From Callorhinchus milii (lineage: Eukaryota): DNA of 64,000 nt. Positions 17,570 to 55,473 of this stretch are shown in pieces (the stretch's first letter is position 1; every line of letters starts with the position of its first letter). A program made the position numbers and the translations under genes. The notes below the pieces were generated by a model, which saw nothing but the letters and a program-made list of their open reading frames with translations, was not told the DNA's origin and ran no database searches. The DNA is taken from assembly GCF_018977255.1 (NCBI RefSeq), contig NW_024704742.1:89034001-89098000 (forward strand), in the 5' to 3' direction.

Positions 17570-17790
17570 CAGAGTAACATGCCTGAAAGGGTAGTGAAGT
17601 CCGATTCGATAACAGCTTTTAAGAGAGAACTGGATAGGTATCTGGGGAAGACGGGTTTGCAGGGTTATGGGGAGAAAGCTGGTGATTGGGGTTAGTGAAA
17701 GTGACTTGCTCTGTCAAAGAGCCGGTACAGACTCGATGGGCCGAATGGTCTCCTTCTGTGCTGTAACATTCTATGAATCTATGAATCTAT
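17570..17790 (+). mobile_element. CR1 LINE 3' end
   Basis: FKRELDRYL coding end, GATGGGCCGAATGGTCTCCTTCTGTGCTGTAAC hairpin, (CTATGAAT)n tail. Confidence 0.85.
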
Positions 17791-20624: not shown

Positions 20625-20933
20625 GAGTCCTGTAGCTCAGTGGTTAGAGCACTCGCCTTGTAAGTGAGTCACCTGGGTTCAATTCCAGGCAGAGGGTGAA
20701 ACCTTGGGCAAGTTTCCTTACTCCACACACCTAATAATAATCTCTCCAAAACAAAACAATAATAAATTGGTCATTTTCAATCCACGACTGTTTGTGGGAC
20801 ACTACTGTGCGCAATTGGCTGCTGCGTTTCGCCCACAAATATACGGTCAATTCACTTTACAGTCTATTCTGTGAAGCGCATTGAGATGTCTAGAAGACTT
20901 AAAAAGCGCTATATCAAATGCAAGGATTATTAT
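20625..20933 (+). mobile_element. tRNA-derived SINE with CORE-like body and L2-type tail
   Basis: GAGTCCTGTAGCTCAGTGGTTAGAGCA (A box), GGTTCAATTCC (B box), ACCTTGGGCAAGT, (ATT)n tail. Confidence 0.85.
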
Positions 20934-46494: not shown

Positions 46495-46519
46495 NNNNNN
46501 NNNNNNNNNNNNNNNNNNN
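46495..46519. other. Assembly gap (25 N)
   Basis: Run of N. Confidence 1.
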
Positions 46520-49260: not shown

Positions 49261-49767
49261 TATAAGTTCCAGCAGTACTCCAACATGCTCTGCGGTCTCT
49301 AAGCTTTGGCTCTCACCAACATGTGTCCCTCTCCAGGATTAGATAAGCAATGTTTGTCTCTGTAAGGAATAAGTAATCTCTACACCAGAGCACACTCTCC
49401 ATACCAGACAAACAGAAATTTGATGCCTATGCAGAACTTTCAGTAGTCTGATTTGAATATTCTAAATAATAACAGAATTGCATTTGTAAAGCGCCTTTCA
49501 CATTGGGCGGATGTCTCAAGGCGCTAAAGGATGGTGATGGGTTTCTGTGTGTGTCAAGACAACTATCTGACCAAAGAAAATGGCACATGTTTCATTTAAA
49601 CTTATGCTGGGACTGGAGAGAGGTTGAGGGTTATACACCTGCCCACCTTTCAGGATGATTCACCTAACACTGTTCTATCTAGCCTCCACTTCATTTTGTT
49701 CTCTGAAGTGTATACTGGACTGATTTAAGAAGTAGAAGAATGGTGTGATAGAAGACTAGTGGGGTGG

Positions 49768-50524
49768 TCTAAGAACGTCAAGGAAGAGACAACCAAAATG
49801 GTGGTGTAAATAATAGATTTGACAAGGATTGAACCTCAGCAACAATGATTAATCAATTGAACATTCAAACACCATAATTAAAACCATAAATACAACAGAA
49901 TTGGCAATACCCAGTCCTGCAGGGCAGCACACTGGTCTCCTACGATGACTTCAGCTTTTCTGCTGCTCTGCTCTAATCATTTACCCTTTTCTTTTTTGGT
50001 CAAGGACACCAGTCTGATCTCATCAATCCAAATCTCTCCGAGACAATGTGGATTCCCTGGGATCGATCTCATCAACCTTGGCTATCAGTCCCTGCAAGCC
50101 AAAGCCCTAACGCGTAGGGTAGTCCTAGCTGGACAAGCAGCGGGAAAGCTTGCGACAGCAATCTCAATGGTAAGCTATGTGGGTTTAGTTAGTTAGACTT
50201 CAGCAGTATCCAACACACACTCTGGGGTCCCCAAGACTTGGCTCTTGCCAACCTGCGCCTAATACTTTCCGGAATTAGGTAAGCAGGGTGCGTCCCTCCA
50301 GGGAAAGAGTACGCATTCTATTCCAACAATCTATCACTGGGATTGTCATATGTAGGCGAGATGCATGGAAACCTCAGCTTAATTTGGATACTCTAAAGCA
50401 TGGTGATGGGTTTCCGCCTGTGACAGGCACCCGGCTAACCAAAACCAAAATCCAATGTGGATTCCTTGGACTGATCTCATTAACGAAAGGTTGACCTCCT
50501 TACCTTCAATCACTGGATCTTATA
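49768..50524 (-). repeat. 3' LTR (contains a family X insertion at 50092-50450)
   Basis: Aligns to 52939-53323 by eye; termini TCTAAGA..TCTTATA are one substitution each from TGTAAGA..TCTTACA. Confidence 0.85.
50092..50450 (+). mobile_element. Family X retroposon, best-preserved copy, 5'-truncated
   Basis: Absent from the other LTR; AACCAAAACCAAAA tail; apparent TCC duplication at the junctions. Confidence 0.75.
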
Positions 50525-50546
50525 GTTCCCACCTTGAACTCTCTCT
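50525..50546 (-). promoter_or_regulatory. Polypurine tract
   Basis: Minus strand AGAGAGAGTTCAAGGTGGGAAC directly precedes the 3' LTR. Confidence 0.55.
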
Positions 50547-50559
50547 TTTAATATTCCCT

Positions 50560-51323
50560 TCAGTTGTAAATACCCTGTATTTTCCTGACTTGTTTTAAAG
50601 CCTGCTTAACACAGCAAATTGAAATCAATAAAACATCTATGATAATTAGCTTTATAACACCAAAGGCATTAAACATACCCATGGTAAATCCTCTGCATTG
50701 TCATAATGTTTATCACACAAACCCTTTGGTGATGTCACATTTGTCAAATCTATCACAAACAGTACAATTTCATATTGAGAGGTTGGTTGAGCCATCAGCT
50801 CATTTTCATGAGCCTGGGTCTTTCTGGGCATTCCTGACTCCAGCCTCCACAATATCCTCCCACGATTGTCATGTGCATCTCACTGGAAGTGACATCCCAT
50901 CCGGGACCTTTTCCTTGAACCATAGTTATTTTCATGTACATGACGCTCACCAACCACTTTGATTCGCTACCGTCCTTCGATATTTTCAAGTCTGTTTCCA
51001 CAATGCTGTCCTCTTCCCATCGGGTACCTGCTTCTTTGACCTCAGATAACATGACTAACCCACGTGTGCGTTACCATCCCATTAACTGTTCTATATTTTG
51101 TAGTCCATTTCCCTTTCACATGGCAATCGAGGACTAAGGGGTAGCCATTTTCAATACCCACTACTTCCGTCGCATTTCCTCCGGTTGCTTGCATTGTCAC
51201 GCGTATCTTGGGATCCTTTGTTTCCGTCTCTGACTCAACCTCCATCGTTACTTTTGCACTTGTTAATACCATCATTATCATCATTCATGGTACCCATTGC
51301 CTCCACAACCAACATTCAGCCAT
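50560..51323 (-). pseudogene. env: env-like membrane protein remnant
   Basis: Starts MAECWLWRQWVP*MMIMMVLTSAK (signal-like) after a TTCTTTTGATTTTAG acceptor; ends MFNAFGVIKLIIIDVLLISICCVKQALKQVRKIQGIYN* (TM plus basic tail) just before the PPT; frameshifted. Confidence 0.6.
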
Positions 51324-51384
51324 TCTGGTGAACCTAAAATCAAAAGAACATGGTTACTTATCAGTTACACCTCTGTTATTTTGT

Positions 51385-52612
51385 ATTGTCTTTGGTATGG
51401 TGACACCTGGTTATCTTTTTGTTCTTTTTACCTTGGTATTAGATCAAGTATACTGCTGCACTTGCCTTGTCCACAATGGGAAATAGCCCCTTCCATTTTG
51501 GTACAAAGGCATGGGATTTGGTATCGTAGTTCAGCACCATTATTGTGTTTCCAAACTCATACTCAAAAGATCTGACTTTTTTTGTCAAAGGGTGGCAAGT
51601 TCTGCAAATTGAGAAGAATGAGGGATGCACGCAAATATCAGAAAGTAGCCAACAAGTGCCTTTCTCATCAGTTATAGGTCTTCTGCACTCCAGTGAGGAT
51701 GTGGAATGCATATACAATGGGTCTGAGGTGCCCTTGTATTTCTTGATTTTTTTACAGCAGCCAGGCTTTGGTCAATTGCTGCCACTTCAAGGTGGAATGG
51801 TTGCTCAAGTCGGGGGGATGATAAAGCACGTAGCCTACATCACCCACTGGGCAAACACTGCAGCTGTATAACTGCTCCATCCGCTGGTCTGTCAATTCAT
51901 CGTCCGGAACTAACATTTTGAGCAAAGTCATGTGGAATAAATGACCTTTGAGAGCCGACCAGTTCCAAAAATGAATGGAGTGTCGTCAAAGACATAGAAT
52001 CATACAGCGCGGAAGGAAGCCATTTGGCCCATTGTGTCTGTGTCGCTCTTTGAAAAGAACTATCCAAATCAATCCCACTCTCCCGTTCTCTCCCCATAGC
52101 CCTGCAAACTTGTCCTCCCCCAAAAACTATCTACTTCTCTCTTAAAAGCTATTATCGAGTCGGCTAATCAGTAGAGGCAGTCTCTGAATAATGTCCACCT
52201 TATGTTGGTCGGGGCTGCGGGCCTGAGGTGACAAATAGATACCAACAAAAGTAAGATCTGGTTGTATTATCTGAGCCCTTTTAGGGTTAACATTGCGTCC
52301 CACCTGTTGGAGCAATGACAACATTTCCGTTAAAAGCTGGATGTGCTGTTCAACAGTCTCAGGGACCACATACATCATCCACATACTGTAATAAGCATTT
52401 TGATCGTCTGAGTCATACGCTGGTGGAAGATGTAGGAGAGTTGTGGAACCTCTGTGGCAAACATGTCAAAGTGTACTGCTGATCTTCGAAGGTGAAGCAA
52501 ATTTGTACTGATCTTCTCTTCGCACTGGGACACTCCAAAATCCATTAGAAATATCCAGGGGAGAGAACCACTTTGCTTTAGGGGTAGTTTGGGATAATAG
52601 GGTAGGAGTCTC
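51385..52612 (-). pseudogene. pol: pol remnant: RT, degenerate RNase H tether, integrase C-terminus
   Basis: KWFSPLDISNGFWSVPVRREDQYKF; YTLTCLPQRFHNSP; CLLQYVDD (YVDD 52374-52385); LHSFLELVG; PFHLEVAAIDQSLAAV..LRPIVYA..ERHLLATF; FVPKWKGLFPIVDK..VYLI. Confidence 0.9.
51992..52163 (-). mobile_element. CR1 3' end inserted in ERV pol
   Basis: Reverse complement gives AATGGGCCAAATGGCTTCCTTCCGCGCTGTATGATTCTATG, like the 17570 copy. Confidence 0.85.
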
Positions 52613-52917
52613 TGTGCCACTTTGATTTCTCTTTTTCCCTTTTGTACCTCTCCATTAATACCAGCTGTACTGCTCTATACGACTGACTTCTCTGTGTCAT
52701 GCTATTTACTATTTCCTCTTTGCCCTTTATACCAGACAATTTTTTTTCAAACCTATTAGTCACTGCATATAACTACTTTACTCTATCAGAGGGAATCGTG
52801 CCCCCTCGCTCCGTATATTACTAACCGGTATTTCAAACAGCTAAATTATAACCCCGCCCTTTGAGGTCTACTGTTACTACGGATGTTGATCCCTTGGTCT
52901 ATATTCACACTGTCTTT

Positions 52918-52935
52918 CTCCTGGCTGACTCGCCA
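52918..52935 (-). promoter_or_regulatory. Primer-binding site, tRNA-Arg type
   Basis: Minus strand TGGCGAGTCAGCCAGGAG, 3 nt after the 5' LTR; complementary with one mismatch to the tRNA-Arg(ACG) 3' end CTCCTGGCTGGCTCGCCA as recalled from memory. Confidence 0.8.
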
Positions 52936-52938
52936 ATT

Positions 52939-53323
52939 TGTAAGAAATTCGAGGAAGATACAACCAAAATGGTATTATAAATAATAATTTTAATAGGATT
53001 GAACCCCAGCAACCATGATTAATCAATTTAACATTCAAACACCATAATTAAAACCATGAATACAACAGAATTGGTATTACCCAGTCCTGCTGGGAAGCGC
53101 ATTGGTCTCCTACAATGACTTCAACTTTCCTTCTGCACTGAACTTTATACCCTCTTCTTTTTTGGACAAGCATACCAGTTCTGGTCTCACCAATTCAAGT
53201 CTCTACGAGACAATGTTGGTTTGCTGGGACCAATCTCGTCAACCTTGGCTGTCAGGCCAATGTGGATTTATTGTACTGGTCTCGTTAACAGAAAGTTGAC
53301 CTTGTTACCTTCAATATCTTACA
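52939..53323 (-). repeat. 5' LTR (385 bp)
   Basis: TG..CA termini with 7 bp inverted repeats TGTAAGA / TCTTACA; TATAAA on the minus strand at 53144-53149; tandem CAATGT.G.TT repeats in the U3 portion. Confidence 0.9.
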
Positions 53324-53356
53324 GTGGGTATTCTAGATTGATGAGATTAAATGGGC

Positions 53357-54190
53357 AACAACAACACCACCAACAAAATTACATTTGTAAAGTGCCTTTC
53401 ACGTTGGGAAGACATCCCAAGTCGCTGAACAGTCGGAGATGAGGACCCGAGCATGGTGGGGGGGCAGGGTTGGGATGAGGGAGGGCAGAGAGGTAGAAGA
53501 GCAGTTGAAGGCACAGTCGAAAAGGAGGGTCTTGAGTCGTGCCTTGAAGGAGGCAAGAGAGAGAGTTCCAAAGGGTGGGGGCACAGAGGCTGAAAGCCCG
53601 GCCACTGATGGTAGGGCAGATCAGGCGGGAAACATGGAGCAGCCCGGAGTCTGCTGAATGGAGGAAACGGACAGGTTTATATGGGGTTAGCAGGTCAGAG
53701 ATGTAGGAGGGGGCAAGGCCATGGAGGGCCTTGAAAGTGAGGATGAGGATTTTGAATTCTATCCCCTGAGGGATGGAGAGCCAGTGGAGCTGGGTGAGGG
53801 TGGGGGTGATAGGGTCACGGATCTTGGTGCGGGAGAGGACATGAGCTGCAAAGTTTTGGATGATCTGCAGCTTGTGGAGGGAAGAGTTGGGGAGCAGACA
53901 AGGAATAAGTTTCTGTAGTCGAGCCTTGAGATGACGAATGCGTGTATGAAGGTTTCGGCGGCCTGAGGGTTGAGGCAGTGCCAGTGTCAGGCAATGTTGC
54001 GGAGGTGAGAGAAGGCAGAGCGGGTCATGGCATGGATATGGGGGAAGAAAGGAAAGTTGAGGGTCGAATAAGACGCCCAGGTTCCTGACTGGCTTGGTGA
54101 GGTGGCGTGTGCATCCGTGGATGTTGATGTTACCAGAGGTGAGAGTGTGGAGGTGCTGATGGGAGCCAATCACGGGGGCCTCAGTCTTGC
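53357..54190 (-). mobile_element. L2 LINE 3' fragment
   Basis: KTEAPVIGS..RNLGVLFD..LQIIQNFAA..LHWLSIPQGIEFKIL. Confidence 0.9.
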
Positions 54191-54544
54191 TAAAAAAGGA
54201 CAAAAGGACCTTCTTCATCTGAACCTCTCTGTTGATGTTGTGGTTTGCCCTTAAACCCTCCATCAATAGTTAACAGCAGTACTACAGGATCCTAGCAACA
54301 GAAGAGCAATCATTTAGTGTCATAGATGTATGGGTCAGTTTTATAACAATGAACAGTGAATCAACACACTTTTCAAAAAGGAGTCCTATTGAGTTCAGCC
54401 AGTATGAAATTGAATTTTGTAGTTTTTTTTACTGATTCCTGACATCTAGCAATGTCCACTGAGAAAAAAATCTAATTTGTGGGTAAAAATGACTGAATTC
54501 CTTTGTGAAAAAAAAATATATCTCATGGACTCAACTTTCTAATG

Positions 54545-55166: not shown

Positions 55167-55473
55167 ATAATAATAATAATCCTTGCATTTGATATAGCAT
55201 TTTTCATGTTTTCTAGACGTCTCAAAGAGCTTCACAGAATGGACCGTAAAATGAATTGACTATATTTGTGGTGAAATGCGGCAGCCAATTGCGCACAGCA
55301 GTGTCCCACAAACAGTCTTAGAATGAAATGACCAATTTATTATTGTTTTATTTGAGGGATTATTATTAGCCGTGTGGAATTAGGAAACTTGCCCAAGGTT
55401 TCACCCTGCCAGGAATCGAACCTAAGTCTCTTACTTGCAAATCAAGTTGTCTAACCACTGAGCTACAGGACTC
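55167..55473 (-). mobile_element. tRNA-derived SINE
   Basis: Reverse complement GAGTCCTGTAGCTCAGTGGTTAGA..GGTTCGATTCC..ACCTTGGGCAAGTTTCC; (ATT)n tail. Confidence 0.85.

What the first reader, a model, noticed from the sequence alone, without database searches (positions are those of the whole stretch)
49768..53323. Provirus with both LTRs from a deep-branching endogenous retrovirus
Seen: two ~385 bp direct repeats with TGTAAGA/TCTTACA termini, a 4 bp TSD (GTGG), PBS, PPT, and frameshifted RT, tether, integrase and env-like pieces in retroviral order on the minus strand. The ORF track shows only disconnected pieces because of frameshifts and two nested insertions. By-eye alignment of the first ~190 bp of the LTRs gives roughly 85-87% identity, so the integration is old. 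Inference: this is a retrovirus rather than a Ty3/Gypsy element, because of the QYVDD and LPQxFxNSP motifs, the tether and the env-like ORF.
Basis: partly seen in the sequence, partly recalled or inferred. Interest (0 to 1): 0.8.

Follow-up and report, generated by a model that had tools for sequence, protein, structure and literature searches.

The report
Old gutted snakehead-like fish provirus
This is a real but long-dead retrovirus insertion, with both end repeats still in place and most of its genes deleted, that likely belongs to a known deep branch of fish and frog retroviruses related to snakehead retrovirus, so it is an old new member of a known kind whose likely envelope gene matched nothing in the searches run.

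Summary
The provirus is real. Its LTRs align end to end (326 of 382 sites identical, K2P 0.164), with a 4-bp target duplication, a PBS, a PPT and two nested high-copy repeats. Corrections: only the 5' LTR has perfect termini, and 'integrase' is just its C-terminal tail. Protease, most of gag and the integrase core are gone; about a third of Pol remains. It is a retrovirus, not Ty3/Gypsy: it has a catalytically dead tether followed by a second RNase H remnant, and AU tests reject grouping with Gypsy (p=0.0007), lokiretroviruses (0.002) and mammalian foamy viruses (0.017). Its nearest relative is a Xenopus tropicalis Pol (100/97). Its PBS matches snakehead retrovirus at 17 of 18 bases, but the tree does not join it to SnRV itself. 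Such viruses are already described in elephant shark (Han 2015), the likely host, and this scan noted SnRV-like proviruses in two other genomes. This copy differs from Han's in LTR, PBS and env, and its LTRs are about five times more diverged. The env-like frame found no homologue. New member of a known kind; modest interest.

The parts
53324..53327 (.). Target-site duplication, copy at the 5' LTR side (GTGG on +)
   Evidence: chance of a 4-mer match 0.5%
52939..53323 (-). 5' LTR, 385 bp, TGTAAGA...TCTTACA; TATA-like box at 53149, ATTAAA poly(A)-like signal at 52994
   Evidence: promoter and poly(A) roles are inferred
52918..52935 (-). Primer-binding site, 3 nt after the LTR; 17 of 18 bases match the SnRV PBS (tRNA-Arg type, from recall)
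   Evidence: L001 scores 17 of 18, the other 35 viral loci at most 12 of 18
52613..52917 (-). Leader and a possible start-of-gag remnant
   Evidence: position only; by-eye likeness to the start of CmiERV scaffold-2 gag; not significant against SnRV Gag (51 of 500 shuffles) or by stop depletion
52160..52612 (-). Reverse transcriptase remnant (palm motifs LDISNGFW, LPQxFHNSP, QYVDD), broken and spread over three frames; N-terminal part and protease absent
   Evidence: 39-44% identity to P0006, P0002, P0122 even across out-of-frame parts
51993..52165 (-). Nested high-copy repeat inside RT; 3' tail of a CR1-like element (family name from recall)
   Evidence: depth about 1.5e5; another copy at 17601-17775, 76% identical
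51641..51992 (-). RT thumb and tether (degenerate first RNase H; LEVAA and ERHLL lack the acidic catalytic residues)
51588..51656 (-). Remnant of the second RNase H (CIPHSSQFAELA)
   Evidence: score 65, 0 of 2000 shuffles reached it, best shuffle 47
51397..51582 (-). Integrase C-terminal (GPY/F-type) tail only
   Evidence: 47% identity over 62 aa to P0006 1116-1177
51334..51348 (-). Splice-acceptor-like pyrimidine tract and AG, 11 nt before the ATG at 51323
   Evidence: sequence; function inferred
50563..51323 (-). Broken env-like frame, about 250 codons in four pieces: hydrophobic N-terminus, two N-glycosylation sequons, transmembrane-like stretch at 50664-50608, short tail
   Evidence: hydropathy 2.64; stop depletion 1, 5 and 1 of 300 shuffles with 1, 2 and 3 frame changes; no homologue found
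50525..50549 (-). Polypurine-tract-like stretch abutting the 3' LTR
50454..50524 (-). 3' LTR, first block (starts TATAAGA)
50092..50453 (+). Nested high-copy repeat inside the 3' LTR; likely the 5'-truncated tail of a non-LTR element
   Evidence: depth up to 2e5; hundreds of contigs run on before 50090 and have A-rich loose ends behind 50444; other copies in the window
49768..50091 (-). 3' LTR, second block (ends TCTTAGA)
49764..49767 (.). Target-site duplication, copy at the 3' LTR side (GTGG on +)

Best explanation
This is a dead, internally deleted provirus with both LTRs, a 4-bp target duplication and remnants of RT, tether, RNase H and the integrase tail, and it likely derives from an enveloped retrovirus of the snakehead-retrovirus-like branch that entered the germ line of a cartilaginous fish tens to hundreds of millions of years ago. 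Shown: the anatomy, the 85% LTR identity, the dual RNase H layout, kinship to frog and coelacanth retroviral Pols, the SnRV-type PBS, single-copy status at 80% or more identity, and two nested repeats. Inferred: tRNA-Arg-primed reverse transcription, integration by a 4-bp staggered cut, an env made from a spliced mRNA using the acceptor at 51334, fixation by drift, then decay through at least four large deletions, frameshifts and the two insertions. It encodes no whole enzyme and cannot move by itself; nothing here points to a host function.
For: LTRs, TSD, PBS and PPT. Five collinear hits to X. tropicalis Pol P0006 (residues 230-387, 386-475, 478-527, 631-653, 1116-1177 of 1184), the best summed score among the 266 proteins tried. 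QUERY+P0006+P0122 has support 100/97, inside a 43-row retrovirus side split from Loki plus Gypsy at 100/98 (57 rows). AU tests reject Gypsy, Loki and foamy groupings. 6 of 7 relatives checked show both second-RNase-H motifs and all 7 show the first. PBS matches L001 at 17 of 18; L001 is SnRV by its length of 10,688 nt and its RT sequence. By eye, the RT, tether, RNase H and integrase-tail motifs closely match CmiERV scaffold 2, which Han 2015 groups with SnRV. 4 of 24 listed runs hold 94-98% of the sampled words, and contigs of 2 laid runs match with 0-3 differences.
Against: My trees do not join the element to SnRV: SnRV is a long branch on an unresolved backbone, and the union is only 'not rejected' (p-AU 0.18). 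No ERV-L, ERV-S or fish foamy-like rows were in the trees. The CmiERV comparison is by eye. The env-like frame has no significant match to SnRV Env (best 120 of 500 shuffles) or to anything else. The host name comes from an earlier AI note and fits only by GC (0.42 against 42.6%) and size (about 890 Mb of contigs against 974 Mb). The four strong holders are one study, and one may be the source of the window.
Confidence: 0.8

Rival explanations
1. The deletions came before integration: a defective short genome that kept all cis signals (LTRs, PBS, leader, splice acceptor, PPT) was packaged and integrated by a helper virus.
For: All cis signals survive while about two thirds of Pol is gone, in several separate blocks.
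Against: No family of equally deleted copies is seen: interior depth is single-copy at 80% or more identity. Frameshifts, stops and nested repeats show long decay in place. The joint table was cut (978 rows not shown), so this is not exhaustive.
Confidence: 0.25
2. It is a retrovirus, but of a separate basal lineage (frog, coelacanth and chimaera Pols) that the literature lumps with SnRV only loosely.
For: In some searches the element and its frog and coelacanth kin never form a supported clade with SnRV. Chong et al. [quoted passage not shown]
Against: PBS shared with SnRV. Union with SnRV not rejected. Han 2015 groups the close relative CmiERV lineage I with SnRV.
Confidence: 0.3
3. It is a lokiretrovirus, which would be the first in a cartilaginous fish.
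For: The first protein hit was named 'NYNRIN-like', and Loki integrase is reported close to CGIN1 (that NYNRIN is CGIN1 is recalled). Wang and Han found Loki in 0 of 3 chondrichthyan genomes.
Against: Loki RT reads RCPFGYxNSP and LIYVDD; this element reads CLPQRFHNSP and LLQYVDD. AU p=0.0017.
Confidence: 0.02
4. It is a Ty3/Gypsy retrotransposon with an extra ORF.
For: UniRef names the closest protein 'Gypsy retrotransposon integrase-like protein 1', an automatic label.
Against: Dead tether plus second RNase H; AU p=0.0007.
Confidence: 0.01
5. The ORF in the env position is not an env but a captured host membrane protein, for example Ig-like, as with nectin3 in crocodilian CrocERV31.
For: About 250 codons with signal-like and transmembrane-like ends. 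An LxCxVxG pattern is visible by eye. Two Ig I-set clusters appear at 0.85 in the Atlas, a lead only. A precedent exists.
Against: No Pfam, PDB or protein-database hit; the model has pLDDT 44. The rest of the element is riddled with deletions, so a cut-down env explains the length. SnRV Env also begins with an Ig-like-looking pattern by eye.
Confidence: 0.1

Closest known systems
CmiERV lineage I, scaffold 2 (Han 2015, PMC4422223)
   Same: Likely the same host. By eye, near-matching RT, tether, RNase H and integrase-tail motifs, a 3-nt spacer before the PBS, and a splice-acceptor-like site right after pol.
   Different: Its LTR is about 830 bp and looks unrelated; its PBS differs (Ser-type from recall); its env has a class I-type LQNRMALD motif that is absent here; its LTR divergence is 0.033 against 0.164; it is 9.6 kb against 3.6 kb. 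Four short motifs of this element were not found in Han's supplement. Whether this locus is among Han's 'short fragments' could not be seen, because figures are not held.
Unnamed Xenopus tropicalis ERV Pol (UniRef A0A803JYW4, P0006) and kin in frogs and coelacanth named 'NYNRIN-like' (P0002-P0005)
   Same: Sister group in the RT-tether tree (100/97); up to 60% identity over 221 columns (P0122); same domain layout.
   Different: These are whole or near-whole Pol frames; their LTR, PBS and env were not available for comparison.
Snakehead retrovirus (SnRV); SnRV-like ERVs, clade Huo of Xu et al. 2018 (PMC6001957)
   Same: PBS 17 of 18; RT motifs LDISNGFW, LPQGF, LLQYVDD; GPY/F-type integrase tail; tether plus RNase H.
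   Different: SnRV is a 10.7-kb complex virus with a long Env frame (1,134 codons stop to stop) and a 136-residue tail. Here the tail is about 20 residues, there is no significant Env similarity, and there is no supported sister relation in my trees.
XtERV-S (PMC8278194) and ERV4 (PMC4299795), other class III-like ERVs of cold-blooded vertebrates
   Same: Non-class I, non-class II Pol with tether, and an env-position ORF.
   Different: XtERV-S has YIDD, a Ser PBS, dUTPase and a class I TM. ERV4 has a 5-bp TSD and no GPY/F motif. This element has YVDD, a 4-bp TSD and a GPY/F-type tail.

Membership tests
Retroviridae (endogenous) | RT groups with retroviruses, outside Ty3/Gypsy | tested here: met
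   (Gypsy union p-AU 0.0007)
Retroviridae (endogenous) | Dual RNase H: degenerate tether, then a second RNase H | tested here: met
   only 23 residues of the second domain survive, and its activity is inferred from relatives
Retroviridae (endogenous) | LTRs with TG...CA ends, PBS, PPT, short TSD | tested here: met
   the 3' LTR has one change at each end
Retroviridae (endogenous) | env gene between pol and the 3' LTR | tested here: inconclusive
   right place, stop-depleted, signal-like and TM-like ends; no homologue
SnRV-like ERVs / clade Huo | RT or Pol forms a clade with snakehead retrovirus | tested here: inconclusive
   not joined; union not rejected (p-AU 0.18); close by eye to CmiERV lineage I
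SnRV-like ERVs / clade Huo | SnRV-type primer-binding site (supporting, not strictly defining) | tested here: met
   17 of 18 bases
Lokiretrovirus | RT in the Loki clade (RCPFGY motif) | tested here: not met
   (p-AU 0.0017)
Lokiretrovirus | Env similar to paramyxovirus F (PF00523) | tested here: inconclusive
   no Pfam hit at E up to 1 for the 3 env pieces scanned; most of env is missing
Ty3/Gypsy (Metaviridae) | Single active RNase H right after RT, and RT within Metaviridae | tested here: not met
Foamy viruses / clade Tu | RT groups with spumaviruses | tested here: not met
   p-AU 0.017 against 3 foamy-type loci; fish FLERVs not in the tree, and their RT motifs differ by eye
ERV4 (Chong et al. 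2014) | 5-bp TSD and no GPY/F motif | tested here: not met
   4-bp TSD; GPY/F-type tail; features as given
ERV-L / ERV-S / XtERV-S | RT groups with ERV-L or ERV-S | not tested
   no such rows were in my reference set; YVDD here against YIDD

The most novel reading that the evidence does not exclude
The locus is the surviving trace of an undescribed basal retrovirus lineage whose envelope-position protein is of a new type (an Ig-like or F-like envelope unlike known Envs, or a captured host membrane protein), and it integrated more than 100 million years ago, which would make it one of the oldest two-LTR proviruses in a cartilaginous fish and a calibration point findable at the same site in other chimaeras.
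Probability: 0.15. Interest if true: 0.55.

Novelty: new member of a known kind. Interest (0 to 1): 0.3.

Why it matters
It adds a second, older family of SnRV-like retroviruses to a cartilaginous fish, with a different primer site and env type from the published CmiERV lineage I on a very similar pol. That fits envelope and primer swapping in basal retroviruses. With both LTRs and the target duplication kept, it is datable: LTR divergence is five to seven times that of the two dated CmiERVs (0.033 and 0.024), and an orthologous copy in another chimaera would give a rate-free minimum age for this branch. It does not change the retroviral tree, and there is no sign of function.

Tried and rejected
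Lokiretrovirus reading: held, dropped. Env identification failed by Pfam (3 of 4 pieces scanned), PDB sequences, the protein database for lengths of 392-2000 aa only (shorter lengths not searched), the Atlas (low recognition scores), SnRV Env with shuffles and 116 fetched loci. A by-eye likeness of one piece to SnRV SU was not significant (120 of 500 shuffles). The single-sequence fold had pLDDT 44, so no fold search was run. The gag remnant is not significant. A fixed-offset test for repeats inside U3 found none. The first tree had two pieces in the wrong frame and was superseded, which left out 34 of 90 reference rows (long branches and near-duplicates, among them P0137, which had grouped with the query); one search used 34 rows. 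No whole genome is held, so related copies and solo LTRs could not be listed; none lie in the window. No RNA holder is listed; one 235-bp exact contig in a run only guessed to be RNA is not taken as expression. Run X10's divergent contigs are mostly G>A and C>T changes and were not taken as a related copy. A paper search for the tRNA-Arg primer of SnRV gave 0 papers, so that name is recalled. The pattern matches by construction and is not evidence. Scan look-ups by sequence found nothing.
Full report
Observation. The element lies on the minus strand from 53323 to 49768. The 5' LTR (52939-53323, 385 bp) has perfect TGTAAGA...TCTTACA ends. The 3' LTR (49768-50524) has one change at each end and is split by a nested repeat at 50092-50453. 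Aligned in two blocks, the LTRs match at 326 of 382 sites, K2P 0.164 with SE 0.023. GTGG flanks both ends, which chance gives 0.5% of the time. A PBS follows 3 nt after the 5' LTR, and a purine tract abuts the 3' LTR. Laying 4 of the 24 listed runs at 80% likeness showed both nested pieces at depths of 1e4 to 1e5 and most of the rest at about 8-14 in the two large runs, with one hole in X1. So the nested pieces are abundant repeats and the provirus is single-copy at that likeness. Four runs of one study hold 94-98% of the sampled words; one of them may be the window's source.

What is left of the genes. The interior is 2,241 bp without the nested repeat. Of 266 reference proteins, the best summed match is a Xenopus tropicalis Pol, P0006, with five collinear hits covering roughly 380 of its 1,184 residues: RT palm, thumb and tether, 23 residues of a second RNase H, and the integrase tail. 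Protease, the start of RT, most of RNase H and the integrase zinc finger and core are absent. No gag capsid was found. The tether reads LEVAA and ERHLL, where the five Gypsy rows keep an Asp at the first site and an acidic residue at the second. The RNase H remnant scores 65 against a shuffle maximum of 47, with 0 of 2000 reaching it. After the integrase tail come a splice-acceptor-like site, an ATG at 51323 and about 250 codons in four pieces with a hydrophobic start and a transmembrane-like end. This stretch is poorer in stops than its shuffles (1 to 5 of 300; the opposite strand is not, 33 to 196 of 300), though I chose its bounds after seeing it. It matched nothing in Pfam, PDB, the protein database, the Atlas, SnRV Env or 116 fetched loci, and its fold was unusable.

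Placement. The first hit, a coelacanth 'NYNRIN-like' Pol, suggested a lokiretrovirus. The RT rows in Wang and Han's supplement rule that out: Loki has RCPFGYxNSP and LIYVDD, while this element has the motifs of their SnRV row. For the tree I used the RT and tether pieces as one partial row of 221 columns. With 56 of 90 reference rows kept, it is sister to P0006 and P0122 (100/97), on the retrovirus side of a 100/98 split from Loki plus Gypsy (LG+G4). AU tests on 35 rows reject union with Gypsy (0.0007), Loki (0.0017) and foamy-type loci (0.017), and do not reject union with SnRV (0.18). The backbone is open and SnRV is a long branch that never joins the element, so membership of the SnRV clade is not shown by the tree. 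Two other lines favour it. The PBS matches L001, which is SnRV, at 17 of 18 bases, while 35 other viral loci reach at most 12. By eye, the pol motifs closely match CmiERV scaffold 2, which Han 2015 groups with SnRV. ERV-L, ERV-S and fish foamy-like rows were not in my set.

Host and age. An earlier AI note calls this genome elephant shark. I could check only GC (0.42, against 42.6%) and size (about 890 Mb of contigs, against 974 Mb). The LTR distance gives 37 My at 2.2e-9 per site per year (rate used), 164 My at 0.5e-9 and 374 My at 2.2e-10. The absolute age is therefore open by a factor of ten. In relative terms it is five to seven times the 0.033 and 0.024 of the two dated CmiERVs. Recombination between two proviruses would inflate the distance, but the intact TSD argues against it.

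How it worked and what it is now. Inferred from established retroviral biology: tRNA-primed minus-strand synthesis at the PBS (Arg type, from recall), PPT-primed plus strand, integration with a 4-bp stagger, and env from a spliced mRNA. It then became fixed and decayed through at least four deletions, frameshifts, stops and two nested insertions. A defective genome mobilised by a helper is the main rival for the deletions; the single copy argues mildly against it. It encodes no whole enzyme.

Comparison with what is known. SnRV-like ERVs are described in elephant shark (PMC4422223: whole main text, part 1 of 3 of supplement file 1, one supplement search; figures not held), across vertebrates as clade Huo (PMC6001957 and PMC8922424: passages), and in frogs, coelacanth and zebrafish (PMC4131045 and PMC4977317: passages). 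This copy differs from CmiERV scaffold 2 in LTR, PBS and env type. It is not XtERV-S (PMC8278194: parts 1-2 of 8 and passages) or ERV4 (PMC4299795: passages). For lokiretroviruses I read parts 1-3 of 4 of PMC7947760 and searched its supplement three times; that file is cut when stored. I saw passages of PMC12440569, PMC10699275 and PMC12193657, and a search of PMC9040795 gave no hits. Hayward 2015 and Hart 1996 were not read. Eight paper searches showed no description of this locus, but Han's short fragments are named only in a figure, and repeat libraries such as Repbase could not be searched, so it may already be catalogued. This scan noted SnRV-like proviruses with F-like envelopes in two other genomes (unchecked notes). 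I could not show an F-like envelope here.

Verdict. It is a new, old and heavily deleted member of a known kind. Interest 0.3. The bold case, a new envelope type and an integration older than 100 My, has probability about 0.15 and would merit about 0.55.

Noticed in passing
proteins P0002-P0010: Several frog, coelacanth and turtle proteins named 'protein NYNRIN-like' or 'Gypsy retrotransposon integrase-like protein 1' are retroviral Pols with a tether and a second RNase H, so the automatic names mislead.
   Followed up: partly
L001:6131-6400: The start of the SnRV env frame shows an Ig-like-looking pattern by eye (V-x-x-G-x-x-V-x-L-x-C ... W ... Y-x-C).
   Followed up: no
window 52650-52770 (-): A short stretch reads like the start of gag in CmiERV scaffold 2, by eye only.
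   Followed up: partly
window 53356-54269 (-) and many other places: The provirus landed about 40 bp past the 3' tail of an L2-like LINE fragment (family name from recall); the window is dense with such fragments, and no host gene was evident among ORFs of 130 aa or more.
   Followed up: no
window 20630-20692 (+) and 55401-55472 (-): Two weak tRNA matches (42 and 34 bits), likely heads of tRNA-derived SINEs.
   Followed up: no
run X10 on window 49300-53800: Differences are dominated by G>A (76) and C>T (16), as a chemically converted library would give, not as a related locus would.
   Followed up: no
window 46495-46519: A 25-base N gap at the start of a long CA-type microsatellite.
   Followed up: no
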